DNA of 64,000 nucleotides from Candidatus Latescibacterota bacterium (lineage in GTDB: Bacteria; Latescibacterota; UBA2968; UBA8231). Location of the stretch: contig OZ241867.1 in NCBI GenBank assembly GCA_965203175.1, forward strand, positions 3,360,001 through 3,424,000, written 5' to 3'. The position numbers and the translations under genes were made by a program. Numbering within the stretch: position 1 is the first letter of the stretch; each line of letters starts with the position of its first letter. The notes under the pieces were generated by a model. That model made no database searches, had not been told where the DNA came from, and was given only the letters and a program-made list of their open reading frames with translations. This document shows positions 27,698 to 54,802 of the stretch, piece after piece.

Positions 27698-28053
27698 GTT
27701 GTGTCGATAGGGTGTCGTCTTGGTTGATCCTGGAGGCTATGCCCCCTTCAAGCGGGGCGAAAAGTGTCTGTTGACCAAAAAATCTGCGGCTTGACTTTCA
27801 AACTAGCCCACTTCCCGAAAAACCTTTGTGGGCTAGTTTATTGCAGGACAAGAAGTTGGCACAGTTTTTGCCAAGGGGAACTTTACATATTGACATTTTT
27901 GGGGCGAAATCGGGAAAGTGATAATTATTCGTTTTGAAATGGAACTTGACTGAGTTTTTTTCTTTGCTTTGTGGGCTAGTGTTTTCAAATATCGTTGTGG
28001 TTCTTTAGAAATAGTCTCATAAAATCCCCTTTTTTTAATCCTTGGTTCTCTAA

Positions 28054-28983
28054 GAAGCCGTCTGAAAACCCTTGCTGTGGTCTGAATTTGAAACGGCGTA
28101 CTCATCGGGCCATATTCAGGTTTCACGACAAAATCTGAATAGAAAGGCTCTTATGATGAGTACGCCGCGAATGCAATATGCTACCGATGTAACCGATGCG
28201 CAATGGCAGCGGATCGAACCGTTACTGCCGGCTCCGAGGTGGTGGCCGAACGGTCCGGGTCGGCCCCCGCGGGATCGCCGCCAGATGGTCAATGGCCTTT
28301 TGTATTTGACCAAGACGGGGTGTCCTTGGGCGTTGTTGCCTATTTGTTTTGGGCCGTGGAAAACCGTGTATGATTACTTTCGTCGCTGGACGCTCCAAGG
28401 GGTCTGGCCGCAGGTGTTGGATCAACTCAGCCAACGGGAACGTCGCCGACAAGGCCGGGTATCCACGCCGTCGGCAGGCTGTATCGACAGTCAGACAATT
28501 AAGACGGCAACCCAAGGTAAAACAACCGGATATGACGCCGGCAAAAAGATTCAAGGACGCAAGCGGCATCTGTTGGTTGACACCTCGGGCTTGCTTAGAC
28601 AGGTGGTGGTTACCGCCGCCGATGTCGACGACCGCGACGGCCTAAAGCAGGTGTTGACCCGCTATAGTACCCCCGACGTACCCCGCTTGCGCAAACTGTG
28701 GGTCGATGGGGGCTACCAAGGTGAGGCGATCCGAACGTGGGTAGCCGACATAAAAAAGACGCACAAGATTGACTTGGAAGTCGTCGCCAAACAAGGCGGT
28801 GGATTTACCGTACTCAAACGGCGTTGGGTCGTTGAGCGTACGTTTGCGTGGTTGATGAATTTTCGTCGTCATGCGAGAGATTATGAGGTGTTGACCTGCC
28901 ATAGTGAGGCCTTGATTCAGATTGCCATGATCCACTTGATACTCAAACGGATCAAGTGAAAAATATAGTTTTCAGACGGCTTC
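28054..28983 (+). mobile_element. IS5-family (IS1031-like) insertion sequence
   Basis: Perfect 16-bp terminal IRs GAAGCCGTCTGAAAAC / GTTTTCAGACGGCTTC, flanked by TAA and TTA; single transposase ORF. Confidence 0.93.
28153..28959 (+). CDS. IS5-family DDE transposase
   Basis: TDAQWQRIEPLLP, TGCPWALLP, IDSQTIK, GYDAGKKIQGRKRHLLVD, WVDGGY, RWVVERTFAW. Confidence 0.95.
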   Translation: MMSTPRMQYATDVTDAQWQRIEPLLPAPRWWPNGPGRPPRDRRQMVNGLLYLTKTGCPWALLPICFGPWKTVYDYFRRWTLQGVWPQVLDQLSQRERRRQGRVSTPSAGCIDSQTIKTATQGKTTGYDAGKKIQGRKRHLLVDTSGLLRQVVVTAADVDDRDGLKQVLTRYSTPDVPRLRKLWVDGGYQGEAIRTWVADIKKTHKIDLEVVAKQGGGFTVLKRRWVVERTFAWLMNFRRHARDYEVLTCHSEALIQIAMIHLILKRIK

Positions 28984-29049
28984 TTAGAGGAAGGGCAGCG
29001 GGTAGAAGTAGAAGACACGGCAATTTACCCCTAGAAAGGATGTTGACTG

Positions 29050-29292
29050 ATGCCTTCCGTATCTAATATAGTTCCGCCGATCCGTCCCGGCCAGTACACA
29101 CCGCTTTCCTCTGACCGCTTTACCCCCGCTGATCCAGACGCTTTCACGCCTACACCCGAGGGTAGTTTCCGGCCGATTCAGGGAGAGTTGGAGCCTGTGC
29201 CCGAGGGGAGCTTTAAGAAGATTGAGGGCGGATTTACGCCGCTGGAGGAGATACCGTTAGAGCAGCGTTACTTGAGAGTTTGGGAGGGATAG
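29050..29292 (+). CDS. Small hypothetical protein with 7-8 aa periodic motif
   Basis: RBS GAAAGGA; repeated xPxxxxF units. Confidence 0.55.
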   Translation: MPSVSNIVPPIRPGQYTPLSSDRFTPADPDAFTPTPEGSFRPIQGELEPVPEGSFKKIEGGFTPLEEIPLEQRYLRVWEG

Positions 29293-29305
29293 AACAGCTT
29301 TAATT

Positions 29306-29497
29306 CTAAGGTCCTTGAGCCTGAATCCTGTCAGCGATAGCCCTTAAATCTCTTGCTGCACTACTATGTGAATTAAATCGCTGAAAAAATTGTTTTCTGT
29401 CTTTTGTTTGCCATAAAACAAGAATGTTTTTTTCCGACCTTTTTACTCCAACAAATTTAATCTCATTTTCTCTAAGGACTTGATTGGTCGAGGCCAT
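29306..29497 (-). CDS. Small hypothetical protein (63 aa)
   Basis: RBS GAAAGGA before ATG 29497; MASTNQVLRENEIKFVG... Confidence 0.5.
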   Translation of the reverse strand: MASTNQVLRENEIKFVGVKRSEKNILVLWQTKDRKQFFQRFNSHSSAARDLRAIADRIQAQGP

Positions 29498-29927
29498 AGT
29501 ATAATCCTTTCTGTCTTCTGGACGATTCCAGGTAGGTCCGGGCCGATGGATAAATTTTCTCGGCGGGGGAAAGGCCCTGCTCGAACTGATGAGCGAGGGC
29601 CTTTCCTTTTTCGCGTTGCTACGCTTTCCATTGAGAGAACGATAACAGACCCCATTCGAGTCGTCAAGTTCTAAAAAAATAGCGATCTCCCGCATCTTCG
29701 TAGGAGGTCGCTTTTTTATTTTTGGCGCTGGTCCTGTATATTTGGACCGATCTTTTTTTTAAGCCCAACAAAAAACCGAGGTTCCTGTTAGCAGGCAGAA
29801 ACCTCGGATTAACCAAAAGGACACTTCTCTATGTCTGAGATAAATATAGAGGGACTTGCCCTTTTCAGCAATCTGCTTCTTTCCCTCAAAAAGCCGCAGT
29901 ATCATCACTAGCGAAAGGACGAAGACC

Positions 29928-30596
29928 ATGTTGCGAATACTACTTGTAGGAACCTTGCTAGCCACGCCTTTGTCGGCCGATGATTTGGTTGGGGGGTGGA
30001 GTGTTTGGGACTCTGACGCAGGAGATGTTATTCTTGATCTGTACGACGACAGGACGTTCTATCTGGCTATATATCCATCGGAGTCGTTTTCTGAGGTTAT
30101 TGTCGATAACGTCCTCCGATTTTTTGTTCCCTATACTTTGGCCGAGCTAACTGACAGCGGAATGCGAGAGACGGTTGTACAGTATATAGAGATGAATGGC
30201 ACGTATTCCGGGGTAGGCGATACGTTGCAACTTCATCATCCAGAGGGAGCTATACACAACATCGACGGGCATGAGTTCAATACTTGGGAACTTGTGACCT
30301 TCTTGGCCTCTTCTATATTGGCAGGGGCGGATCTAGAGTTGAGCGATGGATATAAAGAGCATTTGATATTCCTCGCAGATGCCTATATGGTCGAAGTGAT
30401 GTTAGACGAAGCCTTGCTTACAACGAAGCTAGGATATGATCTAAGCGAAGGTGATTTGACCTCGCTGACACTGTACGGCCTAATGGGTAAAGAAGAGACG
30501 ACTTTGGATTGGCGAGGAACGCTGATAGAACGAACGGCGACGGGAGTGGAGGGAGCTACATGGGGTGAGATAAAATCGTCGTTGCCTTTCCGATAA
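29928..30596 (+). CDS. Secreted protein with C-terminal TWGxIK motif
   Basis: RBS GAAAGGA, signal peptide MLRILLVGTLLATPLSA; ends TATGVEGATWGEIKSSLPFR. Confidence 0.75.
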   Translation: MLRILLVGTLLATPLSADDLVGGWSVWDSDAGDVILDLYDDRTFYLAIYPSESFSEVIVDNVLRFFVPYTLAELTDSGMRETVVQYIEMNGTYSGVGDTLQLHHPEGAIHNIDGHEFNTWELVTFLASSILAGADLELSDGYKEHLIFLADAYMVEVMLDEALLTTKLGYDLSEGDLTSLTLYGLMGKEETTLDWRGTLIERTATGVEGATWGEIKSSLPFR

Positions 30597-30606
30597 ACGA
30601 AGAAGT

Positions 30607-30640
30607 GGCCTCCTGCGAAGATGCAGGAGGCCGCTTTTTT
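30607..30640 (+). terminator. Rho-independent terminator
   Basis: GGCCTCCTGC-N6-GCAGGAGGCC followed by GCTTTTTT. Confidence 0.8.
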
Positions 30641-30666
30641 CTGCTCAAGTAAAAATCAAGTTCTTT

Positions 30667-31518
30667 TCAGAAGTCGTAAATGACGATTAGAACGTTGTGT
30701 TCGTAAACGACTTCTTCTACTCTGCCGTCGATCACGAAAAGAGTCACGAGCCATTCGCCGCTTTTGGTAGGTGAACCGGAATATGCCGGCCTGTTTGTCT
30801 GGAAAATTGTATCGTAATGCCAAGTGAAGTAAATTTCATCGGGGAGCGCGGTGTGTTCGTAGGAGGACCAGGGGAGCAGTTCAGGGGGGACGAAGGGGAG
30901 ATAGGTAAAGCTCTCGCCGATTCGGTTGCGAAAAGTTTCTATTTCTGGCTCTTCCTCTGGCGTCTCGTCCGGTTCTTCTTCCTCTGGCGTCTCGTCCGGT
31001 TCTTCTTCTGGTGGCGCTGCGGGAAAGGTGCCTTGGTAGACGGCCGAGGGAAACCCGTAGAGCGTTCGCTTGCCGCGCGACGTGCGGAACGGATAAGCTA
31101 CAAGCCCTAAGCTGTAAGCGGGTTCCGCTTGGTATCCTTCAAGTTCTCCGAGGCCAGCATTGTCAGGGTCAACCCATCGTTGAAGGCGAGTAGCTGGAAA
31201 TTTCTGCGGGACCCGGAGCCAACCGGAGGCCGTAGGATCGGCGGCGACCCATACGGTGTCGGATTCGATTAGAGCGATTCCGGCCGTGTCTGTGGCCGTA
31301 CATGCGCTGATAGCCTCACAACCCCCATGTGCTAGGTCATGGCCCCAACGGTCGCAGTAGGCCCGCCAGAAGGCTTGATCTCGACAATAGAGGGAGTCCG
31401 GGCCAACGGGGACTTCTCCAACTGTAATTTTTCCGCTGCTCAAAGGAGCTAGCGTCTTCGAGTCATCTATCCCGCAGGCAGACAACATCAAGCTCAAAAG
31501 AAAAAGCAGTTGTTGCAT
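30667..31518 (-). CDS. Hypothetical lipoprotein with acidic EEEPDETP linker repeat
   Basis: Lipobox LSAC; 27-bp duplication at 30950-31003; RBS AGGAAGG. Confidence 0.75.
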   Translation of the reverse strand: MQQLLFLLSLMLSACGIDDSKTLAPLSSGKITVGEVPVGPDSLYCRDQAFWRAYCDRWGHDLAHGGCEAISACTATDTAGIALIESDTVWVAADPTASGWLRVPQKFPATRLQRWVDPDNAGLGELEGYQAEPAYSLGLVAYPFRTSRGKRTLYGFPSAVYQGTFPAAPPEEEPDETPEEEEPDETPEEEPEIETFRNRIGESFTYLPFVPPELLPWSSYEHTALPDEIYFTWHYDTIFQTNRPAYSGSPTKSGEWLVTLFVIDGRVEEVVYEHNVLIVIYDF

Positions 31519-31676
31519 AATTTTCCTTCCTAGTGTGGTGGAGACGCCGGCATTTTTGCCGGATTTTTCCAGGATAGTGCCGACGACTCGAATAGGCAGG
31601 GCATCGCATGGCTTGTACCCCTTCCTACCTTGCGCTGAGCCGCCGACACGTTAAAAGCGTTGTTTCGATAGGGTGT

Positions 31677-31886
31677 TTACTGGTGGGCTTCTTCGATCTC
31701 GTTTAGGAGGTCGGTGGTGGCCCTGGTGAGCATCTTTAGGAGAGTCTTTTCGTCTTGGCAGGAGAGTGTGATTCCTTCGCGGATCGGCGTTTTCCCGTCC
31801 TCTTCGATGCAGCCTTGAATCTCAATCTCTTTCGGGCTTTTTAGGACGAGGGCATCTAGGGTGAATCTCTGCGTTGAATTACTCAT
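31677..31886 (-). CDS. Small hypothetical protein coupled to IS1-like transposase 3' end
   Basis: ATG 31886 overlaps the transposase end; MSNSTQRFTLDALVLK... Confidence 0.5.
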   Translation of the reverse strand: MSNSTQRFTLDALVLKSPKEIEIQGCIEEDGKTPIREGITLSCQDEKTLLKMLTRATTDLLNEIEEAHQ

Positions 31887-32420
31887 CAGTCTTTTTTTTA
31901 CCCGTTTTGTATTTCTTCGGCCGTTTGGGTTTCGGCCAGGCTTCATCCACCATGTCAAGGAGCCAGTCTAGGTCGTAGAGCTTGTCGGTGACGCCTGCGG
32001 CCATCGCTGGTGTGATCCTCAACGAAGAGTGAATCCGAATGAAATTGTAGTGCAGGAAGTGGAGAGCGACCGCGAGCGCGTGGTTCTCCATCTTCTTTGA
32101 AAAGGCGTTCGTCTTCCGGGTGTAGCGGCGCGAGGACATCCGCAAGGTGTAATTCTGCCGCTCGATCAGCGTGGTTGAGACGTGCTTTGTATTCGGGTTT
32201 CCCGAGATGATTTCCTTGGAAATCTCGACCTTCATTTTTCGTTGGGAAAAGACCTTGTGGAGGACGCCGTAGTCCACGTCATCGCCGAAGACCTCGGCGA
32301 TGGCCTCTAGGTAGGCTGCGTATCCGTCCGTGCTCAACTGGACACGGTTGGACAACCGGCTTTCTAGGTCTTCTAGAAATTCGACGGCCGTTTCGACCGA
32401 GCGGTCCCCGATTCTCCATC
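31879..32420 (-). pseudogene. IS1-family-like DDE transposase, 5'-truncated
   Basis: WRIGDRS...QLSTDG...YLEAI, STTLIERQNYTLRM..RRYTRKTNAFSKK, HYNFIRIH...TPAMAAGVTD; N-terminal part absent. Confidence 0.82.
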
Positions 32421-32589
32421 TAAAGAATCCGATGAGCTTTGGAAAAAAATAATAAAAAGAGCCGAAGGGAAATGCGAGTATTGCAAGAAAAACTTATTTA
32501 ATTCGGCGGAAAATTATCTCTTGGCCCAATGGGATGCTATAATTCCCGAGTCTCTTGGAGGAATGCATGATTATGAAAACAGTGCTCTT
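32419..32589 (+). pseudogene. HNH endonuclease fragment paralogous to 61300-61704
   Basis: KRAEGKCEYCKKNLFNSAENYLLAQWDAIIPESLGGMHDYENSAL, cut by a MITE. Confidence 0.65.
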
Positions 32590-32590
32590 A

Positions 32591-32713
32591 GAGCCTATAC
32601 GAAAATTGCTTTCCTGTTGATAAGAAGGCCTTGGCAACCTACGCTCTCCTCACCTATTGACCCTCAACCAAGTCCGAATTGTCGAACGGTTGAGATAATT
32701 TTCGTATAGGCTC
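32591..32713. mobile_element. 123-bp MITE with IS5-type ends
   Basis: Perfect 17-bp IR GAGCCTATACGAAAATT / AATTTTCGTATAGGCTC, flanked by TTA and TAA. Confidence 0.8.
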
Positions 32714-32758
32714 TAAGTCCCGATGGACTCTTCCAGGCAAGAGACAACGATTTTGAGG

Positions 32759-32788
32759 AAGCCCTGATACTCATCAGTATCAGGGCTT
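32759..32788. terminator. Hairpin, probable terminator of the HNH gene
   Basis: AAGCCCTGATACT-N4-AGTATCAGGGCTT. Confidence 0.6.
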
Positions 32789-32810
32789 ATGTCTACACTT
32801 TCTCTAAATT

Positions 32811-33974
32811 TCAAACTCCACGATTGGAACATAAATGCTCAATGAAGGGCTCAAGTCTCTCTATGAGCAAACGAACAATATTCTCTCTATGTTCGTCCGA
32901 AATCCTTTCCCCTGGCTGAGCACCACAGTTGGCGAAGGCATATTTCAAGGCATCAGCACTAGCATTAGAAATTGCGTTTCTCACCGACTTTTCCATATAG
33001 AATTCCAACAGATCGCCAATCGCGGACTCAAATTTTTCCAAGTCCAAATTCTTGTATGAGTAGGTCGCAACAATCTCTTCTGGAGTAAGAGCTAGGTTAA
33101 CCTTGATGTCCAATTCATTTCCGCTAATGGGATCGATAGCATAACACCGAGAAAAACTCTCACCGTCGTAGTTGCTCGACAAGCACAGCACAATTCGCTG
33201 GAAGCCAAAGTATTCCACGTATCCCAGAACTTGGCGAGATTCAGGATCGCCTCGCACGAAAACACAATGAAAAAATACCCTCTTAGGACGATTTAGAACG
33301 AGATCCGTAGCATTATAGTATCCAAAACATGGTTCACCATTGGCTAACAAATAGTCATGCGCGTGTTCGCAATCGATGAGATGGAGCCCTATATCCGAGG
33401 TAAGTGCGAGACATGACTTAACAATTGAGCGACCGGCTATCTCTCCTCCGAAAGTAAGTGGTATAGATAGTGGATCTTCGAGATATTCCCTTCGTGGGGC
33501 TGCCTTCTCTAACACTTGGTCTATATCGAGATTTGGATATTTCCTAACCAAACCCGGCAGCATCTTTTTCAACTCTTTTATGGATGAGGTGCGAATTTTT
33601 ACTTCTGTTTGATCGCCCAAGGCTCGCTCGGTGAAGACTGTTTCGCGCATGTTCATTCGTCCATCCGCGTGGATAAGAATTTTATCGCCCCCCACGGTTT
33701 CAACCAGAACAGGCTGATTCTCACCCCGCTGACGCCGAATATTCAGCAACGTGCAGAGGGGCTTCAGTTGCGTAACGAGTTCATGGTCCCATTCTGCACC
33801 GGTTGTACTGTTACAATCTTTGCAGATAAAATTGTACACGGTTTTCTTCCCGCCTATCGCGTTCGGAATGACGTGTTCTTTACTGCCGTTCTTATTACGG
33901 ATCGGTGTATTGCAGAGAGCACAGCACTTCTCTTGATCGATTTTCTCAGTTATGTCAGTAACTTGCGTAGACAC
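32811..33974 (-). CDS. Stand-alone HNH endonuclease with large C-terminal region (candidate defence)
   Basis: CALC...SKEHVIPNAIGG...ICKDCNS; lower GC; start GTG 33974 with RBS AAGGAG. Confidence 0.82.
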   Translation of the reverse strand: MSTQVTDITEKIDQEKCCALCNTPIRNKNGSKEHVIPNAIGGKKTVYNFICKDCNSTTGAEWDHELVTQLKPLCTLLNIRRQRGENQPVLVETVGGDKILIHADGRMNMRETVFTERALGDQTEVKIRTSSIKELKKMLPGLVRKYPNLDIDQVLEKAAPRREYLEDPLSIPLTFGGEIAGRSIVKSCLALTSDIGLHLIDCEHAHDYLLANGEPCFGYYNATDLVLNRPKRVFFHCVFVRGDPESRQVLGYVEYFGFQRIVLCLSSNYDGESFSRCYAIDPISGNELDIKVNLALTPEEIVATYSYKNLDLEKFESAIGDLLEFYMEKSVRNAISNASADALKYAFANCGAQPGERISDEHRENIVRLLIERLEPFIEHLCSNRGV

Positions 33975-34764
33975 AGTTGTCTCCTTACTAATCTTGCCAT
34001 TGGTCTCAAGGGCTAGTGAGCAGTCCTCGCTCGTCGATGGAAACATATAAAGAGGGCCTTGGGGGGGATTTTTGTCAAGGTACTGAGCCCGTTCAAGGAT
34101 TAGGCCAGATCCCCCGCGGTACTTGGCCCGTTTCCCGTCCTTGGTTGCCGATCCGTGTCGCCCCGTGCAGAGATGGGCCAGAAAATCGTCCGCTTTTGAC
34201 TTGAATGGTGCCCAGTTGCCCGCTCACCTTCTCCGGCCGACAATCCGGGAAGATCGACGAGGCCCGCACCGGCCACCGCGCTCGAGATCAAGCGTCCTCA
34301 GCCGCATGGCCCTGCAGGTGCATACGACCGCGACCAGAGTATTGCCGCTCAGACCGCTTAACTTGCCGAAGATCCGCCGCGGTGGGATGTGCTATGGTGT
34401 GGGGGCGTTCCGATTGAGTTGAGCCAGAGCACCGAGAAGAGCTGGCCGCTGCAGTGGCGCGCTCGACGCCTCGTAAGCAGATCCACACAAAGGCCGCTGA
34501 AATGCCTGAAACACAAACTAAATGGCCGGAGACCCCAAAAAGCCGCTCTGCACGTCAAATCAGTATACAAAATCGTCAGTTGATGCTGATTGGACGAATT
34601 CCGCGAAGGCCGGCCGGAGCAGCCCCGCTTGGTCGGTCGCACGCACGTGAGAATTCGCCCTGTCTTGGCGAAAAGCACCCATACTCGCGCATAACTTATT
34701 GTATTGCAACACCTTAAACGGCGCACGCGGTCGAGAACTACCCCCTCGTTGACCCACACCGAAA

Positions 34765-34951
34765 CCCCGCTACATCAGATCACTAGCCAAAATCATCAGC
34801 TCACCTGATGACCTGAAGATGCAGGCCTAGCCCACGTCCCCCATTATACGCCGTCCACAATCGACCGGAGCGCGGCGCTAACTGCAAACCTGCCCACACG
34901 TCCGCTCTTGCCTCTCGACCCTTGCCCCGCGTGGACAGCTTCAACCCGCCG
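34765..34951. repeat. Diverged ~185-bp non-coding direct repeat, copy 1 (copy 2 at 45868-46052)
   Basis: Shared blocks CCCCGCTACATCAG, CCTGA(T/C)GACCTGAAG, TACGCCGTCCA, GCGGCGCTAACTGC, TTGCCCCGC, GTGGACA in the same order. Confidence 0.8.
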
Positions 34952-34961
34952 CGGCCTAGCG

Positions 34962-35135: not shown

Positions 35136-35394
35136 ATTCGGAGAGACGGACCCGACGCCAGGCCGGAAATCGTGCGCGATCCGGTGCGGTTGCAGCCGCG
35201 CTGTACCCGATGGCGACCGCATCAGCGGTATCAAGGATTGTCGGATTTGCTGCGGCGGGCACCGGCGCACACCAAAGCGCAAGGCGACCCGCCTGCGGCG
35301 AGGGTGAAGGCCCACTATTGACCTACCTTGTAGGTCGGAGGGTAGAGGCGAAAATCTCGGTAGTGGTTCAGTTTGAAAAATCAGGTGTATAACT

Positions 35395-35949: not shown

Positions 35950-35951
35950 TT

Positions 35952-39200: not shown

Positions 39201-39252
39201 GACGCATCTCCTTGAACGGGAGGAACAGGAGGCCCCCGAAGGGGCCGGGCCA

Positions 39253-39387
39253 GTTCACATTCCCGCAGAGATGCAGAAAGGTTCTACCTATTCGCCAAGG
39301 CGGAAGGGAGCTACCCTTCGCCGGGTCATGGCTGTTGTATTCAGCAGAGGACCCGACTAAGCACGGGTTCTCCACGAGAATGTGAAC
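39253..39387 (-). ncRNA. Candidate structured RNA (135 nt), unknown class
   Basis: 5' GTTCACATTCTCGTGGAGA pairs with 3' TCTCTGCGGGAATGTGAAC (19 bp including G-U); internal hairpins; starts 7 nt after a consensus -10. Confidence 0.62.
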
Positions 39388-39393
39388 GCCTCC

Positions 39394-39422
39394 ATTGTAC
39401 TACGGCTGGACGCGCCGGTCAA
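39394..39422 (-). promoter_or_regulatory. Sigma70 promoter
   Basis: TTGACC-17 bp-TACAAT on the minus strand. Confidence 0.75.
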
Positions 39423-39931: not shown

Positions 39932-39935
39932 CCCC

Positions 39936-42256: not shown

Positions 42257-43769
42257 GACGCCGACCCTATCGACGGCGACCACGACCGCCGAAATCCTAG
42301 AGGCAACAGCCCGTTTCTGTTGGTATGAATCCTATAACAACAGCGAGGATTGCCCCACCCAACAGATCCCCACCGAAACCGACCTATACCAAGAACCAAC
42401 CCTTTGGGATCTCGACCGACCCCCTTGGCCCATGGCCCGAGGCTATCCACTTCGGGGCGATCTGCTCAACGAGGTGCGTTCACGGCTGACCCAGTTGACC
42501 AAGTGGATAGCCCCGCATATTAAAGGCGGTATATGGGACGTGTACGCCACTGACTTTAACAGCGGGTGTTTGGAGTTCACGTACCGCCACGCTCCAGACC
42601 GCCCTCCGTTTTTGGGCTGCGAGATTGAAGATATACAGATTGCCTTTCGCAAAGCAGCTCAAGACGGCGACCCGCCCAAGCACCCGATCGTCCTAATGGT
42701 CGAGGCGTGGCAACAAAGGCCCCGGTCGGTAGAAACCGACCGCAAGCAGCACGGTATCCTTCCCCTTGTGTTGAAGGCGACACAACTACACCCACAAGAC
42801 GCAACCGAAAGCGACAACCGCAACGGGCAACTCCCCTTTGTTTCGACCCCTAACCCTTTGGGAAAGTATCACAGCCAACAAGCGGAGCTACCCTTTTTAG
42901 AAACACCCAAGCCCGGCAAGTTTATCCCCGCCCTACCCGTGCAGCGTTATGACCTGGCAGGTGGGCCGACACGTACCAAAGGTCCCGGAGCGCCCTACGC
43001 ACAGCGCCTTTTCTTTGAGGCGCTTATGTCCGTTCCACGTCAAGACCGGATAGCGCACATGTCCAGCAAAGTTACCCTTACACTGCGCGATTTAGTGGCT
43101 TGGATATGGCCCAAGGGCTGGGAGCGTAAACGCAACTTGCCCGCGCTGGCTCGGGCGCTCGAAGATTTAAACAAGATGGTGATAAGATGGGAGCGCCGCG
43201 ATTGGATTCTTGTTGTCTGCCGCTCCTTTCCAACATGGGAAACTAAGCTAGAAGACTTGATATGCTTGGAAGTTTTCAACTTACCCGGCAGCGACCAAGG
43301 CCCCTTGATTAACCGCTTCTGGTCCCGGCACTGGGGGTTGGTATGTTTCACAGCCTACCGATCTTACTTACGGCTGGCCTACATTTGGGACGATGTGAAA
43401 GCCAAGCGCGGAGGCCGTCGCGTCTTTGCAACCCGCCCGAAGGTACTACGAGACGAACAGGACCGGCTTGTGAACGCCAAAGGCGAGCTTATCCTTAAAG
43501 GCGGCCAGCCTGTCAAAGATTGGAGCCACCCGCAAGCGATCCAAACCGGCAAGCTTGAGCGCAATCCAGCAGCCGACCACGTGCCCGAGCTTGGCCCCGA
43601 CGATCTGGCCGAGCTCGGATTCAACGACGACCCTAACTTGACCCGGCAGCAGATAGCCGACCGCGCCCGCAAAACTCGTGTTGCTTTGCGGAAAATGGAG
43701 GCCGCCGGCGCGGTTGTATTGGAAACAGACCAATACGGCGGAGTAAGGGTTCTAGAACCGGCAGGGTAA
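42249..43769 (+). CDS. Hypothetical protein, probable replication initiator
   Basis: ATG 42249 overlaps the helicase end; winged-helix-like segment (TLRDLVAWIWP...LARALEDL); iterons lie just downstream. Confidence 0.55.
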   Translation: MPKTPTLSTATTTAEILEATARFCWYESYNNSEDCPTQQIPTETDLYQEPTLWDLDRPPWPMARGYPLRGDLLNEVRSRLTQLTKWIAPHIKGGIWDVYATDFNSGCLEFTYRHAPDRPPFLGCEIEDIQIAFRKAAQDGDPPKHPIVLMVEAWQQRPRSVETDRKQHGILPLVLKATQLHPQDATESDNRNGQLPFVSTPNPLGKYHSQQAELPFLETPKPGKFIPALPVQRYDLAGGPTRTKGPGAPYAQRLFFEALMSVPRQDRIAHMSSKVTLTLRDLVAWIWPKGWERKRNLPALARALEDLNKMVIRWERRDWILVVCRSFPTWETKLEDLICLEVFNLPGSDQGPLINRFWSRHWGLVCFTAYRSYLRLAYIWDDVKAKRGGRRVFATRPKVLRDEQDRLVNAKGELILKGGQPVKDWSHPQAIQTGKLERNPAADHVPELGPDDLAELGFNDDPNLTRQQIADRARKTRVALRKMEAAGAVVLETDQYGGVRVLEPAG

Positions 43770-44692: not shown

Positions 44693-45867
44693 TGGCACTC
44701 CCTAGCTCGTGGTGGTGATAGATCTACAAGTCCCAGCCGCCCACAGACGAGCACACACACTTTTTTGCACGTCAACACACGCACCAGAGCGAACCCTTGC
44801 CCCCGGACCTTGGGACAGCGCCAAACCCCGGAATACGCTCTATAGTGGCGGTCAGTGCGCGCCGCGCCACGGCAGCGCACGCCAAGACCGCCGCGCACAC
44901 GGGATTTTCAGCCCTCGCTGGCGTAGGAAGCACCCCCGCCGCGTTTGTAGTATACGGGGCGAAGGATAGGACAGAATTTCACTGAGCGGCCCCCGCGCCC
45001 CATTCTACACCGTCCATTGCCTATCTGCGTTGGCCGCACAAGGCCAGCGGCGAAAGGAACGAGCGCTGCCGTTTTGACTTCGCTCGCTCGCCTTGCGCTC
45101 TGAGACTTGGTGCGCATCGGTGTCCGCTTCTCGGCCAGAGCCAGAACAATCTCGGCAAACTGCGCCGAGAACGTTCTGGCTCAGCTACCCGGAATCGCGC
45201 GAGGTCAAGTATATCGCCTTGACCACTGATCGAGGTTGACCACCGACCGACGTATTGATTGAGCTATGAGGCCCGCGCATAATGGACGAGTTGAACGGCG
45301 ATCTATTTAGGCCACAGTGAAAGGCAAGTTGGGAAGCGCTAAAATAGAAACGCCGGCCGCTATGTGGACACTTCACGACCGGCACTCCACCTTGCGAATA
45401 TCAAGAGAGCGACCCTTGACGGCCACGAAGGTATCGCCGCAACGCCCAGGTCAAGACGCCCACCCCGTATACAACCTTGTGTTATATAATAGGGCGGAAG
45501 GTAGGGCAATTTTCCACCGCACAGGCCCCTCGCTCCCTCATTTCAGCAGCGATCGACGATCAAAAAGGGGCACGATTGCGGATTTGGGCGGATCTCCCCA
45601 CACGTACGCGCATCACGCGCGCGATAGCGATAGATGGTAAGGAGTGCACCCCCTCGTCTTTTCTGGCCCGCTTTGTTTGCCCTGGCCTAGTGCCAGAGCA
45701 GCCCACCCCGCCCCCCATCGCCATTATAACCGCCCTCGACCATCACCGCCGCCAGAGCGCCCCAAACGCCGTCTAAGTGTTTCGCCGGCCTCTTGCTTGG
45801 ACATGGGAAAGGCCGAGCTTGTAGCACCTGGACGGGAAAGCAGCAGCCGTGCAGAAGAACCGACACA

Positions 45868-46052
45868 CCCCGCTACATCAGGCTAGTACCCAAAATTTCA
45901 GGCCAGCCTGACGACCTGAAGGCCGCAGGCCCAACCCTGGCCCCTTTCTACGCCGTCCATTACCGACCGAGGAGCGGCGCTAACTGCGAAAGTTGTCCAC
46001 ATCATCACGCCCGCCCTGTTGCCCCGCAGGTGTGGACAATTTCAACGCGCCG
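45868..46052. repeat. Diverged ~185-bp non-coding direct repeat, copy 2
   Basis: See 34765-34951; contains the inverted pair TTGTCCACA / TGTGGACAA. Confidence 0.8.
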
Positions 46053-47413: not shown

Positions 47414-48604
47414 TCAATTCTCCTCCCAAGCCAGGGGATTAGATCCACTTTTACAGAAGAAGAACTGGACGTGCCCACAGTAGCCACAGGTGAATATCTT
47501 GAAGGCATTACCTCCTGCTGGATTCAACCCAAAATCATTTCTAGTGTCCATAATATCCTTGTCCACAGATAGTTTATACTCTCCGAAACCACAGACCCGG
47601 CACGGGCGGACAATATTTTCTCCCACTGGATCTGCGCCAAGTCTTAGGGCACGAAGAAGATCGTGAATCTTCACACCTAGCGAACTCGCGTCCCGAAGAC
47701 AGTCCTTTTCGTCTTCAACAATGCACTTATCAAGCAAGCCATTAAGAAATACCATTTCGGGTCTATTGGGAAACATTCGCTCAAGATTGAACTCATTTCG
47801 GCGGTGATACCAAAGGGGAAGAATCGGTTTGCTCGATACCATTGACCAGATGGTCTTACCCAACGAAAAGACATCGAAACTGGGCTTTATCTTTTCTATT
47901 CGCCTACCTGTAGCCCATTGTGGCATCCAGTCGCGACTGCCTACGTTTTCCACTGTGTCGCTCAGCCTCGTGTGATCTCCATCTGTGAAGTGCACGAGGC
48001 CAAAGTCGCCAAGTACTAGTTGTTCACTCTCATCTACAAAAATGTTCTCTGGCTTGATGTCGCGATGGACGAGCCCCTCTCCGTGCAAGGCGGCAACCCC
48101 ATCAACGATTGGCCGAATTGCAGTTAGGGTACGTTCTACTTGACCAGTAAACCAGCCGGATCTGTCTTTCAGGGTTCCATTCGTATAGTATTTTGAGACG
48201 AACCACTTCTCATCAAGGTTATAGTCCTCAATCTTCAGGAGATTCGGGTGGTCAGCTTGCTTCATAGCCTCCAGTTCGCGTTTTAGCCGTTCCTCTGCAT
48301 CCTCGAAATTTCGGGCTTCATTCGGCGAGTGAAGAATTTTGAGTGCGCCGTGGTTCATAGGATTGTCATCACGTACAATTCCGATAATGCCTTTTCGTAT
48401 CTCCTTCTCTGTATCTGGAGTTACCTCTATACGGGTACTGGACTTCAGAGCGTCGCGGATTGCACTAACGATACCAACCACGTTCACCACGTTGTTCGGC
48501 AAGTTCAAGGGGGGCTGCGTACTCTTGTCCAAGACGCGGAAAACCTCACCTTGCCCTCCTTTGCCAATGCTTTCAATCTTTTCCCAACGATTTAAGTACT
48601 GCAT
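47414..48604 (-). CDS. Ser/Thr protein kinase with C-terminal Zn ribbon
   Basis: IGKGGQGEVF, ALK, HRDIKPENI, DFG; CRVCG...CGYCG; RBS GGAGGTG; no TM segment. Confidence 0.9.
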   Translation of the reverse strand: MQYLNRWEKIESIGKGGQGEVFRVLDKSTQPPLNLPNNVVNVVGIVSAIRDALKSSTRIEVTPDTEKEIRKGIIGIVRDDNPMNHGALKILHSPNEARNFEDAEERLKRELEAMKQADHPNLLKIEDYNLDEKWFVSKYYTNGTLKDRSGWFTGQVERTLTAIRPIVDGVAALHGEGLVHRDIKPENIFVDESEQLVLGDFGLVHFTDGDHTRLSDTVENVGSRDWMPQWATGRRIEKIKPSFDVFSLGKTIWSMVSSKPILPLWYHRRNEFNLERMFPNRPEMVFLNGLLDKCIVEDEKDCLRDASSLGVKIHDLLRALRLGADPVGENIVRPCRVCGFGEYKLSVDKDIMDTRNDFGLNPAGGNAFKIFTCGYCGHVQFFFCKSGSNPLAWEEN

Positions 48605-48968
48605 TTTCGCACCTCCAATCCTCAGTTATGGACGCACCAACACAAATCCGACTCCTACGCTAATTTAGGGTAGTGGGTTACTTTGCCTTTCAGCAGCCGC
48701 GATCGCGGCGACCAGCAGCCAGCAGCCGGCGAGAAGGAACAGGGAACAAACTTACCTTGAAAACGACTCGAACCTCGTGTTTACGACTGCTGAGATGATT
48801 TCAGGGCGGCGTTGCGTTCGCCCTCCAGTAGCCCCCCAATATGGGCCACGCGCTCGTCGAACTCGGACAGGCGATTGGTTACGCCGTCTATCTTCTCCGT
48901 AAGCCGCTTTTCAACACCCGAGATGTCGCAGGGTTACTAACGATAAAAGACGGTAGCGCTAGTACGAT

Positions 48969-49052: not shown

Positions 49053-49125
49053 GTCAGCCGATCCCGTCCTAAGCTACAACGGGCCTACGCGACCAGAGGC
49101 CAGCAACCGTCGAGAAGGCTCATTA

Positions 49126-49270
49126 GAAGCCTTTTTAAAACTAGGGTTTCGGTCTCTCATGCGGCTCAAAGCGTCTGATACCGGGGGCATCTAGCCCTAT
49201 GAAAAACGTTTGACGCCAAGGTACTTTATCCCCCTACAAAGCGGCCCGATGGGGGTTTTAAAAACGCTTC
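49126..49270. mobile_element. 145-bp MITE with IS5-type ends and TTA target duplication
   Basis: IR GAAGCCTTTTTAAAAC / GTTTTAAAAACGCTTC (1 mismatch); TTA on both sides. Confidence 0.82.
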
Positions 49271-49313
49271 TTATGAGATAAGACCGTTCCTCATATAAGA
49301 AAACCGTCGTTCG

Positions 49314-50178: not shown

Positions 50179-50260
50179 GGCGTCGTTCCTATGTGGGTTA
50201 GTGGGTCATTCTGAATAAGAACAATAAATTAGTATTGGCACAGGTTTTGCCGAGGAGGCT

Positions 50261-51868
50261 TTAGAGTGCGTTAGAAAGCGGTCCGACCCGTTGTTTGAGG
50301 CTCTGGGCCAACTTATTGTCATCCCGAATTCGGGAGACTAACATTCGCTGGTATATCTTTTTACTTTCGAGTTTGAGTGCTTTAACAATAGCCTCAAAAG
50401 CACGGCTCTCGCGAAGTGGATAACGAGCAACAAGATCGTCCAGTCTTTTCTCATTTACTAGTTTATTGAAGCGGTCCAACTCCTTTTGATAGGGAATATC
50501 GACAGATATGTCGAACTTTGATTTGGCTTCAATACATTTCCAGTCCGGGATTTTTTGTACTATCGAATCACGTACTCGACGTTCGCACCGCCGCGCCGCC
50601 ATCCTTTCGGCCATATCGCCCTTATTCAGGGCTTCAAGTGCTTTCTGATTCGCCAATTTGATCATGTCGTCTGCCTTGCTCCTCAAGGCCTTTTCTTGCC
50701 ATCGAGCAACAGCGGCAATGGAGTCGGAGCAGTAGTAGAGAGATTCGACCGAGCACATGTCCAAGGCAAATACCCAACCTTCGACAAGTCGCTTGACGTC
50801 CTCTTCCTCTAAGCTATCCCGGTCAATTAGCCCAAACGCCTCGACGCGATGGAACTGTTGAGATTCTCGCAGACCTCTCACCGCTTTCTGGACATCACTG
50901 CAACCTCCCTTCGACACTACTGAGATATCCGGAAATAGAACGCTGTAAAGCGGTAAATCCAAACTGTTGGAGTCGCCTTCAACAAAGAGAATTCTTTTCC
51001 GGGAACCTAAGATTGACCGTTTAAGACCTTCTGGTAAAGAAGAGTTCGGTTCAAGGAGTTCGACATCCCAAGCTGTAGCCTTATCATCTTCCCATTTGCA
51101 TGATCGAACCATTAGGACGCGTGCTTCTGGATCAGCGACTGGCAGTGCTACCTCATGCGTCGAGACGACAAATGTGCAATCCGTGCGTTTCTCGAACAGC
51201 GCCGACAGAAGTGGCTCGATGATGGACCGATGGAGATGCCGTTCCGGCTCGTCAATCAGTAACACGGTACCTGGCTCAACAGTTAAAACGGCGGCTGCAA
51301 GGATTGCGGCGTTTCGCTCCCCATCGGACATCTGAGCGATACTGAAAGGCGCACTGCCGTCTCGATGGTGCGCTAGTATTTCTTCGTCCTTGTAGTTTTC
51401 CAGCGTAACTGCCAGTGTCCCGATTCTGAGAAGTTCGTTGAGTTGAGCAAACGGAGATCGCGATTCGGCAGAAGTTTTTTCTGCTTCTCCCGTATTGCCA
51501 CTATCGACATGATGAGTGATGCTGCGAGCACGAGCATTCTCCTTGGCAACCAAATCAAAAAGTATCGCCGATTGTTTCTGTTGTGCGTAATCATCTCGCC
51601 AACGAGCTTGATCCTGCCTTTCGATATTCGTGTTTTCCCCATCAAACTGTTTGCGACTCAGCGGAGTGAGATCAAGGTTCCCAGACTGGAACCATGTCTG
51701 TCGATGCGCCGAAATACGCCTGACTTTCTCGTCTTGATTCGATGAAACAAGGTGCTGGATCAACGCTGATTTTCCAGAGCCATTGGCACCAACGATGAAA
51801 AGCCGATTATTGTTTTCGAGAGACACTTGTAGAGATTGACCTGAAATTTGAGGAATCGTCCAATTCAT
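50261..51868 (-). CDS. ABC-type ATPase fused to TOPRIM (DUF4435-like) domain; OLD/PARIS-like defence protein
   Basis: GANGSGKS, MSDGER, LLIDEPE, STH; then LFVEGDSNSLD, KGGC, GLIDRD. Confidence 0.82.
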   Translation of the reverse strand: MNWTIPQISGQSLQVSLENNNRLFIVGANGSGKSALIQHLVSSNQDEKVRRISAHRQTWFQSGNLDLTPLSRKQFDGENTNIERQDQARWRDDYAQQKQSAILFDLVAKENARARSITHHVDSGNTGEAEKTSAESRSPFAQLNELLRIGTLAVTLENYKDEEILAHHRDGSAPFSIAQMSDGERNAAILAAAVLTVEPGTVLLIDEPERHLHRSIIEPLLSALFEKRTDCTFVVSTHEVALPVADPEARVLMVRSCKWEDDKATAWDVELLEPNSSLPEGLKRSILGSRKRILFVEGDSNSLDLPLYSVLFPDISVVSKGGCSDVQKAVRGLRESQQFHRVEAFGLIDRDSLEEEDVKRLVEGWVFALDMCSVESLYYCSDSIAAVARWQEKALRSKADDMIKLANQKALEALNKGDMAERMAARRCERRVRDSIVQKIPDWKCIEAKSKFDISVDIPYQKELDRFNKLVNEKRLDDLVARYPLRESRAFEAIVKALKLESKKIYQRMLVSRIRDDNKLAQSLKQRVGPLSNAL

Positions 51869-52311: not shown

Positions 52312-53280
52312 CTAGGGCAAGAAGCGGTTGGTGAAGACCGCGGTGGCGGCCACCACACTCTCTTTGATCAGGCCAGCGGCCACCATTTGTTCCAATAGCT
52401 CCTGCCAGCGCTGCAAGGTCATGCTGCCGAGGCCGTTTTGTTGGGCGACCGGATCGAGAACCATGTCCATGGATTCGGCGGCTCCATAGGCGAGAATGTC
52501 CATGCCCATCTCGGGGTTGAGGCTGTTGATATGGCGGTTGGTCGCCTCTGGTTCGGCGAGGTATTTCTCCCAGCCTTTGACGCTGGCGCGGACTACGGCA
52601 CCGACGAGTTCAGGTTCGGCGGCGATGCGCTCTTCGGTGGTGATGAGCACGCTGGCGTAGGGGTTGAAGCCGGTGTTGGCTACGAGCAGGGCCTTGGGAT
52701 CGCCGCCTTTGGTCTTGGCGACGAACGGTTCGCTGAAGACGTAGCCCTGCTGGGCGAAATTCTCGTCCACGAGGAATTGGGCCACATTGCCGGGATAGGG
52801 GACTATTGTGACGCCTTCAAATGGGTACTTCCAGCGCAGATAGTGAGAGAAGGCCGGGCGTTGCGACAGGGCCAAGGTGATGTTTTTGATTTGCGAAATA
52901 GAGTCGATGCCGGCGCTCTCGTGGACCATAATGCAGCGCGGGTTGATCTGATAGGATGCCATGACCGCGATGATGGGGATTTGTTGGGCGCGCGCGTAGA
53001 GGATGTCGTCGGCATTTGTTATGCCAAAGGCTACCGCGCCGGTGGCCACGCGCTGGACGACCGGCGCATCCGGGCCACCGCCGAGGATTTCGACCTCAAC
53101 CCCGTTTTCCTCGTAGTAGCCGTGGACTACGGCCGCGTACAAGCCGCCGTGTTCGGCTTCTGGGAACCAGTTGAGCGCGAGTTGGACCTTGGGCAGGGCG
53201 TCGGCTGTGGGCGCTTCTTTTTCAGCGGCGCAGGCGACGAGCGCGAGGAAGGCCGCCAAGAGCGAGTATTTGAATATCAT
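52312..53280 (-). CDS. NMT1/THI5-like ABC substrate-binding lipoprotein
   Basis: Lipobox LVAC; LNWFPEAEHGGLYAA...GYY; GYVFSEPF. Confidence 0.88.
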   Translation of the reverse strand: MIFKYSLLAAFLALVACAAEKEAPTADALPKVQLALNWFPEAEHGGLYAAVVHGYYEENGVEVEILGGGPDAPVVQRVATGAVAFGITNADDILYARAQQIPIIAVMASYQINPRCIMVHESAGIDSISQIKNITLALSQRPAFSHYLRWKYPFEGVTIVPYPGNVAQFLVDENFAQQGYVFSEPFVAKTKGGDPKALLVANTGFNPYASVLITTEERIAAEPELVGAVVRASVKGWEKYLAEPEATNRHINSLNPEMGMDILAYGAAESMDMVLDPVAQQNGLGSMTLQRWQELLEQMVAAGLIKESVVAATAVFTNRFLP

Positions 53281-53299
53281 GGGAATTCTCCTAGTAGTA

Positions 53300-53382
53300 T
53301 TGGCCTATCTGGGACATCGCCCGGCGCGGCCGTTGGAATTTTCGGCTATTTTGGAGCTGCGAAAATGGCCGGTTTAGGCCAA
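53300..53382. repeat. Structured ~83-bp dispersed repeat, copy 2
   Basis: TTGGCCTA...TAGGCCAA terminal IR; internal GGCTATTTT/AAAATGGCC stem. Confidence 0.7.
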
Positions 53383-53738
53383 CTCCCCCGGCGCGTAAAA
53401 CCCTGTTCTCGGGATTCGTCCCAAACTCACGCCATCCCTCTAGCGGGTTCATCCGTCGCCGGCCGATAAGAGCTCTTTTACCGAGATCGGTTGCGGTTTT
53501 GTCCCTTTCACTTTATAGAAGAGCACCTCGCTAATCCGGTAGTCAAATGAAATGGGACTTATTTAAGGGCTTCTGCTTTTGAAAAAGCTGGCGGAGTTCA
53601 GATTTTGACAACTCAATAGGCTCATTATTGTCGAGGGCATTCAATAGATCGCTTAGATACATTTAAGACCCCTTTTATATCCGAGGCGAAATTTCAAACT
53701 GATACACTACTGGTTATCCCAGCTTGCACTGGACGAAG

Positions 53739-54671
53739 CTAGTGGCCAAAGTTGAAGACAAAGTCAATGTAGGGAATCCCTGGAAACACTATATCCACGG
53801 AGGGTATCGCGATCATGCCCACATCCGCGCTCATGCGTAAGCCCAAAAAGCGGATTCCATATATAATCCAGGGCTCGTCGTACGCATTGGGAAAAAGCCA
53901 ACTCTCCGCGACAACGGCCATTCGTCGCGTCCACCTTCTTTTCATGCCCAATGTGAGCGCGGGTTTATTCTCTATTTCGCCATCCACAAACCCCCAGCCC
54001 AAACCCGCTGTGAGGCCCTCGGGACCGCCGAAAGTTCCTACTCCATATAGAATGCCCGCCGAGAAACTATCATCACCGTCAGGCACCCGCATGATGAGCG
54101 CTCCCAAGGCCAGATCCAACGACTCTTGGTTCAGCAGACCCACTTTGGGCGTAATGTAGAAGGGGAGGTCTTTGAAGGGGACAGGGAGCGTGAGGCCACC
54201 CGCTCCAATAGTAAATTCGTCCGTGACTCCGTAGGCGATCATGCTGAAGAGCAGGTAGCGGTTGGAATAGTAGCCCTGCCCGCGTTCCAGCATTTGGGCC
54301 GTTGTGCTTAGAAGAAGCCGCGTGGTGTTCAGATCGGGATACCAGTGTTCGCCGTCCCGCATAGAGGACGCTGGGATTCGCCTGATTTTCTTTATGGCCC
54401 GGATGCGAATTTCCGTCTTGCCGAAGTTGGTCTCAACGTAGATGACAGAGACGCCAATGGAGACAATGCGACCAATGACCATTCCCCCATCTTTGGTTTC
54501 GATCACTTGCATATAGCCAGACTCGGGGATTTTCAGGCCGTCTATCATTCCCTCTTGGGCTTCGATTGTTGCTGGTAAGATAGTGATCGAGCAAAGCAAT
54601 AGAGCTCGAATGACGAATTTATTAGCGCAAGACGCCACCAGCAGCGCGGTGGCAAGGACGGCCATAGACAT
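53739..54671 (-). CDS. Putative outer-membrane protein
   Basis: Signal-like N-terminus, amphipathic beta-strand C-terminal half ending YIDFVFNFGH; RBS GAAAGGGA before 54671. Confidence 0.65.
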   Translation of the reverse strand: MSMAVLATALLVASCANKFVIRALLLCSITILPATIEAQEGMIDGLKIPESGYMQVIETKDGGMVIGRIVSIGVSVIYVETNFGKTEIRIRAIKKIRRIPASSMRDGEHWYPDLNTTRLLLSTTAQMLERGQGYYSNRYLLFSMIAYGVTDEFTIGAGGLTLPVPFKDLPFYITPKVGLLNQESLDLALGALIMRVPDGDDSFSAGILYGVGTFGGPEGLTAGLGWGFVDGEIENKPALTLGMKRRWTRRMAVVAESWLFPNAYDEPWIIYGIRFLGLRMSADVGMIAIPSVDIVFPGIPYIDFVFNFGH

Positions 54672-54802
54672 GTTATCCCTTTCTCTTAGTTGTCGGGCGC
54701 GATCTCCGCGAGGGTGGTTGTGGGCTACTATGCACCTTTCAGCCCTTCCCGCTCCCAAGACTGACCAACATATAGCTTTGGGTAGTGGGCTAGTTTGAAA
54801 TC

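What the first reader, a model, noticed from the sequence alone, without database searches (positions are those of the whole stretch)
27796..54800. Island divided by at least six IS1-like terminal sequences lying just 3' of cargo genes
Seen: a GGTAGTGNNTCAGTTTGAA-like motif at 35359-35378, 48669-48685, 50196-50215 and 54781-54800 (+) and at 27796-27815 and 53692-53710 (-). Several sit directly after the last gene of a block: 16 bp from the lipoprotein stop at 35395, 45 bp from the AAA-TOPRIM stop, 2 bp from the ProX stop, about 100 bp after the integrase. Two IS1-like transposase remnants (31879, 61070) head minus-strand gene strings. Inference: the motif is the right end of a cargo-carrying IS1-like family, and the island grew by serial delivery of cassettes, an integron-like outcome produced by a DDE transposase.
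Basis: partly seen in the sequence, partly recalled or inferred. Interest (0 to 1): 0.7.

Follow-up and report, generated by a model that had tools for sequence, protein, structure and literature searches.

The report
Transposon ends that stack gene cassettes
The six repeated motifs are leftover ends of an IS1-like jumping gene that carries cargo genes; here they lie unpaired inside a tRNA-inserted island, but in many other bacteria this family sits end-to-end in arrays separated by one repeated 8-base target, so it likely inserts right beside its own ends and can stack gene cassettes somewhat as integrons do.

Summary
All six motifs are real (20-34 bits on an independent profile; none reach 18 in the reversed genome). 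They are terminal inverted repeats of a cargo-carrying IS1-like element. In relatives the motif forms BOTH ends of 1.5-5.8 kb elements with an 8-bp target duplication (12 of 13 pairs), and of transposase-less units up to 17 kb.

In this window none has a duplication-matched partner. They lie in a 54-kb tyrosine-integrase island at tRNA-Lys that a relative lacks entirely. The cargo swaps I could map fall 50-60 bp inside an end, not at it. Serial delivery is therefore not shown here; only 27815 keeps a decayed tandem junction.

Family-wide the idea holds better. In a GTDB scan 81 of 121 back-to-back junctions have exactly 8 bp between ends, and that 8-mer recurs at the far ends (29 of 53; control 4 of 1060). 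This gives arrays of unrelated, mostly transposase-less cassettes. It points to insertion directed by a resident end, akin to IS30 IR-targeting, and affects about 3% of ends. This scan noted similar end pile-ups on other DNA. New variant of a known kind.

The parts
26235..26295 (-). 3' piece of tRNA-Lys(CTT): left att site of the island, inside a 230-bp direct repeat 26063-26295. The intact tRNA lies at window-equivalent 80686-80761, beyond the window
   Evidence: G010 joins 26295 straight to the 80514+ side
26534..27697 (+). Tyrosine integrase with arm-binding domain; likely the enzyme that inserted the island
   Evidence: Pfam PF00589 7.5e-25, PF13356
27796..27815 (-). IS1-like terminal IR, unpaired; inner 12 bp match the transposase-stop region of an intact element (L035)
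   Evidence: 25.3 bits; side-by-side
27816..27823 (.). 8-bp spacer between two back-to-back ends; likely a re-used target duplication
   Evidence: matches the family's 8-bp junction rule
27824..27843 (+). Decayed IR: profile score -8.4, but 12 bases identical in register to the 27815 end; likely the terminal end of an L029-type element
   Evidence: sigma54-like motif at the same offset (33) as in L029, and the first cargo ORF is homologous
27857..27871 (+). Inward sigma54-type -24/-12 motif (consensus recalled)
   Evidence: 5 of 38 verified ends carry one, background 0.4%
28053..28987 (+). Unrelated IS5-family element inserted into the arm
29050..29292 (+). Terminal cargo ORF, homolog of the terminal cargo of intact element L029
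   Evidence: 41% identity over 58 aa, E 3e-14
31879..32421 (-). 3' half of an IS1-like DDE transposase; keeps the second D and the E, lacks the HTH and first D
32737..32825 (.). Decayed copy of an 89-bp miniature with these ends; overlaps the HNH gene stop; edges approximate
   Evidence: blastn to G000 5324046-5324110; ends of that miniature
35359..35378 (+). IS1-like terminal IR, unpaired, 16 bp from the lipoprotein stop
   Evidence: 33.6 bits
48669..48688 (+). IS1-like terminal IR, unpaired; its first 50-85 bp recur in other genus genomes with homology starting at or within 4 bp of IR base 1
   Evidence: 21.0 bits
50197..50216 (+). IS1-like terminal IR, unpaired, 44 bp from the stop of the AAA-TOPRIM (PARIS AriAB-like) gene; inward sigma54-like motif at 50236
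   Evidence: 20.0 bits
53692..53711 (-). IS1-like terminal IR, unpaired; sits where G025 has an older decayed end of opposite direction, so it likely inserted into that end
   Evidence: 27.0 bits
54781..54800 (+). IS1-like terminal IR, unpaired, 2 bp from the ProX stop; the junction shares 7 bases with the longer ProX 3' end of G025
   Evidence: 33.5 bits
61063..61179 (-). Tail remnant (about 39 codons, one stop) of the same transposase, heading the minus-strand string that ends at 54781

Best explanation
The six motifs are terminal inverted repeats of a cargo-carrying IS1-like transposon family, left unpaired inside a 54-kb tRNA-Lys integrase island, likely after insertion followed by deletion and recombination; the family likely inserts exactly beside a resident end and re-uses its 8-bp target, which builds cassette arrays elsewhere and likely left one decayed junction here.

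Shown: intact elements are IR - cargo - single-ORF DDE transposase - cargo - IR with an 8-bp duplication. Transposase-less derivatives range from 27 bp to 17 kb. Arrays X-E1-X-E2-X of unrelated units exist in many phyla.

Inferred steps: (1) An incoming element, or a transposase-less cassette moved in trans, is positioned by transposase bound to a resident end, so the staggered cut falls on the 8 bases beside it. (2) The new end-to-end junction and adjacent deletions then remove partner ends and duplications. Deletions that spare the upstream gene persist, leaving 'gene - solo end' units. (3) A solo end can be re-recruited as a boundary: L205 moved using a different outer end. (4) In this island most cargo turnover happened by recombination in short shared segments just inside the ends. 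No cognate transposase remains in the genome.
For: IR and duplication: 13 of 20 loci show a pair around the transposase; 11 have 8/8, 1 has 7/8, 1 has none. Six more bounded units, 5 with 8/8 and 1 with 7/8, among 20 loci. A 17.2-kb unit with 8/8 and no tblastn hit. Empty site and att. No partner for any of the six ends. Arrays: spacer 8 in 81 of 121 junctions, and 38 of 52 when both ends must fit fully. The spacer recurs at a far end in 29 of 53, control 4 of 1060. 24 of 40 closed units lack transposase; 7 of 8 testable neighbouring units share no blastn similarity. All 80 spacers differ and carry about 1.2 bits, like 20 single targets at about 1.3. In a sample not chosen for junctions, 3 of 88 ends have an opposite end at spacer 8 and none at the 30 other spacings. 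The two large end clusters examined in relatives (G001, G010) each hold an 8-bp junction. Polarity: gene converging on the inner side in 16 of 22 unpaired ends vs 0.42 (p 0.003) and 8 of 11 vs 0.43. Precedent: IS30 IR-targeting and deletions starting at a junction edge (PMC9333248, passages).
Against: No reaction was tested, and positioning by a resident end is inferred from spacing alone. 24 of 53 junctions show no matching far end within the 4-kb flank. The window junction's second end scores -8.4 bits, and its spacer recurs at no other end. A cruder gene caller found no 3' enrichment (9 of 32 vs 0.30). Both callers are home-made, and one search set aside 10 of 32 sites (members of pairs or tRNA-linked variants); with all 32 the count is 21 of 32 (p 0.005). 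Genes on the outer side do not preferentially point away (10 of 22 vs 0.56), so the 'deletion up to the next RBS' step has only anecdotal support. No orthologous flank was found for 27815, 35359 or 50197.
Confidence: 0.7

Rival explanations
1. One reading: this island grew mainly by serial delivery of 'cargo + right end' cassettes by the DDE transposase, each end marking a delivery.
For: 4 of 6 ends sit 2-98 bp after a stop. G025 shows three decayed same-direction ends between consecutive genes. Runs of same-direction ends occur in G001 and G010. A solo end was recruited in L205.
Against: No duplications in the window. The island came as one integrase block. Joined forms skip 48720/48729-52238/52242, inside the end. 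The 53718-60685 string is collinear in G025 over two short contigs. The motif marks both ends of intact elements.
Confidence: 0.15
2. Arrays come from target-sequence hotspots, as for P-element dimers, plus tolerance of insertions in dispensable DNA, with no targeting by ends.
For: Duplication-separated dimers driven by site preference are described, including bacterial cases cited there (10.1101/158386, passages). Targets have a mild S-R-R..Y-Y-S bias. Islands tolerate insertions.
Against: All 80 junction spacers differ and are no more informative than single targets (about 1.2 vs 1.3 bits). Tolerance alone would not peak at exactly 8 bp. A structural or protein-bound hotspot outside the 8-mer is not excluded.
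Confidence: 0.08
3. Arrays are tandem dimers of one element (circle re-insertion or unequal crossing at the duplication) whose interiors were later replaced or deleted.
For: IS30 forms and dissolves dimers. End subtypes match at 4-6 of 6 positions across 8 of 11 junctions. L125 units share 72-102 bp, and three second units are 27-30 bp palindromes.
Against: 7 of 8 testable neighbours share no sequence beyond the IR. In L144 the subtype differs across junctions (1-2 of 6) but matches within units. Left and right ends take part about equally (15 L, 16 R), and one R-R junction was seen.
Confidence: 0.07

Closest known systems
IS1 family; single-ORF, passenger-carrying members (ISMhu11 group / transporter IS; group features recalled, tIS definition read in PMC9330008)
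   Same: GGnnnTG ends, 8-bp duplication, DDE transposase with Pfam PF03400 above cut-off, passenger genes inside the IRs
   Different: NCBIfam NF033558 scores 51-72, below its cut-off of 100. Single ORF without the insA/insB split. 1.5-5.8 kb, with transposase-less units up to 17 kb. Arrays that share one duplication.
IS30 IR-targeting (PMC9333248, passages); IS911 targeted insertion (title in a reference list only)
   Same: Insertion next to a resident end creates an IR-IR junction; junction-edge deletions follow
   Different: IS30 junctions are exclusively IRL-IRR, 2-bp spaced and unstable. Here the spacer is 8 bp, is repeated at the far ends, involves either end, and joins unrelated cargo units that persist in genomes.
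TSD-separated tandem dimers of P element and hobo, and bacterial dimers cited there (10.1101/158386, passages)
   Same: X-E-X-E-X geometry from double insertion
   Different: There the cause is a preferred target motif and both copies are one element. Here the spacers have no shared motif and the units differ.
Mobile insertion cassettes (MIC231 type; recalled, lead from e1-9769428)
   Same: IR-bounded cargo genes without transposase, moved in trans
   Different: MIC231 is IS4/IS231-derived. Stacking of such units was not found in my searches.
Integrons
   Same: Outcome: tandem, mostly single-gene units with defence, toxin-antitoxin and unknown genes
   Different: No IntI/attI/attC. Each unit has two IRs and a duplication. 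Growth is not tied to a promoter-proximal site. The window's integrase is an arm-type tRNA integrase (integron model TIGR02249 25 bits, cut-off 265).

Membership tests
IS1 family | Ends GGnnnTG as terminal inverted repeats | tested here: met
   definition in PMC10425158 Table 8
IS1 family | 8-9 bp target duplication | tested here: met
   12 of 13 pairs in relatives; absent at the six window ends
IS1 family | DDE transposase matching IS1 models | tested here: inconclusive
   PF03400 26-39 bits above GA 24.1 in 6 of 6. NF033558 is the best hit but 51-72 bits, below 100, in 6 of 6 full proteins; no hit for the remnant. Conserved D66, D138, E191.
IS1 family (classical IS1) | 740-1180 bp, two ORFs | tested here: not met
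   1.5-5.8 kb, one ORF of about 260-295 aa
ISMhu11 group / tIS | Single ORF with N-terminal HTH, no zinc finger, passenger genes (recalled) | tested here: inconclusive
   Fits, but no reference member or paper was available (0 papers)
IS1 family | Copy-paste / cointegrate chemistry | not testable with these tools
   needs an assay
Integron | IntI integrase | tested here: not met
   TIGR02249 25 bits vs cut-off 265; arm-binding domain present
Integron | attC sites between cassettes | tested here: not met
   The delimiters are transposon IRs with duplications; no dedicated attC model was run
tRNA-targeting genomic island | Integrase beside a duplicated tRNA 3' end, and an empty site in a relative | tested here: met

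The most novel reading that the evidence does not exclude
A widespread IS1-like lineage uses its own ends as a programmable landing site. Each new element or transposase-less cassette inserts on the 8-bp duplication beside a resident end, so any single insertion can grow into an integron-like array of defence and accessory genes built by a DDE transposase. Junction-driven deletion then trims such arrays into 'gene + solo end' strings like those in this island.
Probability: 0.4. Interest if true: 0.75.

Novelty: new variant of a known kind. Interest (0 to 1): 0.5.

Why it matters
Solo IS1-like ends behind orphan genes are common in uncultured bacteria and are missed by annotation. If end-directed insertion is real, it gives a second route, besides integrons, to ordered gene arrays. 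It would explain why such ends cluster, and it supplies a simple assay: one end on a target plasmid. It could also serve as a site-directed, stackable insertion tool needing only a 20-bp end. For this window alone the result is modest: relic ends in an ordinary tRNA island that carries defence genes.

Tried and rejected
Pairing the six ends by duplication, within 60 kb and by a search for each 8-mer across the island: none. I considered 35359+ with 53711- as one 18.4-kb unit, like the 17.2-kb unit of G001 that shares four short segments in partly the same order; the flanks do not match, so this is left open.

An intact cognate transposase in the genome: none. Four copies of a different 1230-bp IS1-like element with other ends exist.

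Orthologous flanks for 27815, 35359 and 50197: not found in the 30 genus and 60 family genomes searched. These searches score only 4-9 candidates per genome.

Rfam: no match in the window. A loose 7+7 junction pattern in 168 phylum genomes was at control level, with only 2 hits of 8 bp, so junctions are rare in this lineage. Viral contigs gave 4 junction matches, none a clear array. No RNA holder was listed. Contigs of other runs showed no joint at an IR edge, apart from one depth-2 record at 35380. The partner-offset column was miscomputed and is not used; one search repeats it correctly.

Literature searches listed no paper describing duplication-sharing arrays of IS1-like cassettes. The library lacks most subscription papers and ISfinder/TnPedia, and two wanted papers were not held, so novelty is provisional. 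No supplements were read.
Full report
Observation. The six motifs are at the stated places. A first profile from 12 genome hits gave 28 sites above 18 bits against 0 in the reversed genome. To avoid circularity I retrained on 24 ends from relatives that have a verified target duplication. All six window sites then score 20.0-33.6 bits, and 32 genome sites exceed 18 bits against 0 in the control. Six of the 28 strongest lie in 27 kb, which 0 of 20000 random placements reproduced. An exact pattern occurs in 25 of 31 genus genomes, with no hit for the reversed control.

What the motif is. The remnant at 31879-32421 finds relatives in 16 of 61 genomes, counting this one. In 20-kb loci, 13 of 20 show two motifs facing each other around the transposase, 1.5-5.8 kb apart. 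Eleven have a perfect 8-bp duplication, one 7/8, one none. So the motif is the terminal IR of both ends, not only the right end. The elements carry 1-8 passenger ORFs on either side of a single ORF of about 260-295 aa. That ORF has an N-terminal HTH-like region and conserved D66, D138 and E191; the window remnant keeps only the last two. Pfam PF03400 passes its cut-off in 6 of 6 full proteins. NCBIfam IS1 is the best model but stays below its cut-off. Ends GGnnnTG and an 8-9 bp repeat are the IS1 definition as tabulated in PMC10425158 (Table 8 passage), but size and ORF number do not fit classical IS1. I therefore say IS1-like transporter element (tIS as defined in PMC9330008, passages). Units without a working transposase also move. 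Six more bounded units of 1.0-2.2 kb were seen among 20 loci. A 3.7-kb unit sits at a site that is empty in this genome, and a 17.2-kb unit has a perfect duplication. In L205 the duplication is shared by an inner element's right end and a different outer end, so a solo end was recruited as a boundary.

The island. G010 runs from window 26295 straight into the sequence that lies at 80514 and beyond in this genome. The repeat contains the 3' part of tRNA-Lys(CTT), whose intact copy is at 80686-80761. An arm-type tyrosine integrase follows the att site. The finding thus covers the left half of a 54-kb integrase island. That island also holds a primase-helicase-Rep module, PARIS AriAB and SspABCD-FGH. 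No intact cognate transposase is left in the genome; its only two remnants are both in this island.

The six ends. None has a duplication-matched partner. TSD loss by adjacent deletion or recombination is common (PMC11708052, passages).
27815 is followed after exactly 8 bp by a decayed end in register (12 identical bases). Behind it lie a sigma54-like motif at the same offset as in intact element L029, and an ORF 41% identical to L029's terminal cargo. So 27824 to 32421 is likely the arm of an L029-type element standing back to back with another end.
48669 is a true mobile end: homology to other genomes starts at or within 4 bp of its first base. But the cargo between it and 52243 is absent in G010 and in contigs of other runs, with joints 50-60 bp inside the end.
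53711 sits where G025 has an older decayed end of the opposite direction.
54781 joins ProX at 7 bases shared with the longer ProX tail of G025, which suggests a microhomology deletion. The string from 53718 to 60685 is collinear in G025 over two short contigs.
For 27815, 35359 and 50197 no orthologous flank was found.
Polarity: a crude gene caller showed no enrichment of stops inside ends (9 of 32 vs 0.30). A codon-scored caller gave a converging gene for 16 of 22 unpaired ends vs 0.42, and a stop within 100 bp for 10 of 22 vs 0.23; 10 sites were set aside (p 0.003 and 0.018). In metagenomes, 11 of 27 ends with at least 3 kb of inner sequence are solo. Eight of those 11 face a gene end, five at 19-22 bp. 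Intact elements do the same at 17 of 26 ends, so the polarity is a family trait and does not prove delivery.

The family-level result. A back-to-back pair 8 bp apart in G001 prompted a GTDB scan for two ends facing outward with 0-30 bp between them. The spacer is 8 bp in 81 of 121 junctions and 9 bp in 8; it is 8 bp in 38 of 52 when both ends must fit in full. Record titles of 8-bp cases include Acidobacteriota, Alpha-, Beta- and Gammaproteobacteria, Chloroflexota, Actinomycetota, Verrucomicrobiia, Binatia and Kryptoniota; titles were shown for 80 of the 121. Of 53 such junctions with flanks (two duplicates dropped), the same 8-mer abuts a far end on both sides in 10, on one side in 19 and on neither in 24. 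Foreign 8-mers do so in 4 of 1060 trials. Of 40 closed units, 13 have a full transposase, 3 a piece and 24 none. Of 11 neighbouring pairs, 3 have a 27-30 bp palindrome as one unit, and 7 of the other 8 share no sequence. L144 holds three complete transposase-less cassettes and a fourth end, all separated by one 8-mer. Cargo seen in arrays includes a HigB/HTH pair, a dCTP deaminase-like gene, NYN, a STAND-like ATPase and an acetyltransferase. All 80 spacers differ and hold about 1.2 bits, as do 20 single targets. That argues against the hotspot cause shown for P-element dimers (10.1101/158386, passages). In a sample picked only by one end sequence, 3 of 88 ends have a partner at spacer 8 and none at other spacings: the event is real but uncommon. 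In this phylum only two exact cases were seen in 168 genomes, each in a large cluster of solo ends.

Mechanism. Shown: the geometry. Inferred: transposase bound at a resident end positions the staggered cut on the adjoining 8 bases. IS30 inserts next to its own IRs, and its junctions start deletions at their edge (PMC9333248, passages). Such deletions would turn arrays into 'gene + solo end' strings. This last step has only anecdotal support, and outer genes show no orientation bias. Differences from IS30: an 8-bp spacer repeated three times, either end involved (15 left, 16 right), and unrelated persistent units.

Verdict. This island is an integrase island with relic ends and one decayed junction, but the family does produce integron-like arrays. 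Ten searches listed no description of such arrays; the library is incomplete. Earlier scan notes report pile-ups and fossil right ends of IS1-like elements on other DNA; they are unchecked and are not counted as support. New variant of a known kind, interest 0.5.

Noticed in passing
G000 C1 3424867-3440179 (L345; beyond the window, same island): Complete SspABCD plus SspFGH phosphorothioation defence cluster (PADLOC).
   Followed up: partly
window 50261-51868 and 47414-48604: Fused PARIS AriAB-like gene (5e-62) and a Ser/Thr kinase resembling mad6 / PD-T4-6. Both occur singly in other contexts in relatives.
   Followed up: partly
window 52312-53303: The NMT1/THI5-like gene is a 94% copy of a gene at G000 5486565, from its 5' UTR to its stop, placed between segments that resemble contiguous DNA in G025. 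This precise single-gene copy is unexplained.
   Followed up: partly
window 39936-43769: Primase (Zn-ribbon + Toprim), AAA_25 helicase and a Rep-like ORF found in only 2 of 30 genus genomes. Its remnant lies inside the 17.2-kb IR-bounded unit of G001.
   Followed up: partly
window 20004-20044: A second tRNA-Lys 3' piece, so another island (20045-26062) lies in tandem. At window 19956, G012 has an IR exactly at the synteny break.
   Followed up: partly
window 26063-26234; G000 3440255-3440746, 3649327: An end-like variant (starts GGTCGTG) fused to a strong hairpin downstream of the tRNA, repeated at both att sites.
   Followed up: no
window 49125-49275 and 32586-32672: Two multi-copy miniatures; the first has ends like the IS5 at 28053.
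   Followed up: partly
window 39185-39437: Multi-copy segment; in G023 an IR is inserted exactly at its 3' edge and it travels inside L205. Earlier notes call it a candidate RNA.
   Followed up: no
window 57316-57365 and 59262-59310; 34764-34951 and 45867-46052: Direct repeats (50 bp, 92%; about 190 bp, 72%) flanking cargo blocks; contigs of other runs show a joint 59304 to 57360.
   Followed up: no
L064 8457, L069, L080: Ends whose outer flank is the reverse complement of another end's target 8-mer, a sign of end-mediated inversion.
   Followed up: no
L082, L110, L126: 27-30 bp palindromes made of two IR tips, flanked by the same duplication; possibly scars of near-precise excision.
   Followed up: no
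genus genomes G003, G010, G025, G028; G000 2939921-2939999: A 79-bp miniature with these ends recurs across the genus (81-93 bp forms in G014, G021, G029).
   Followed up: no
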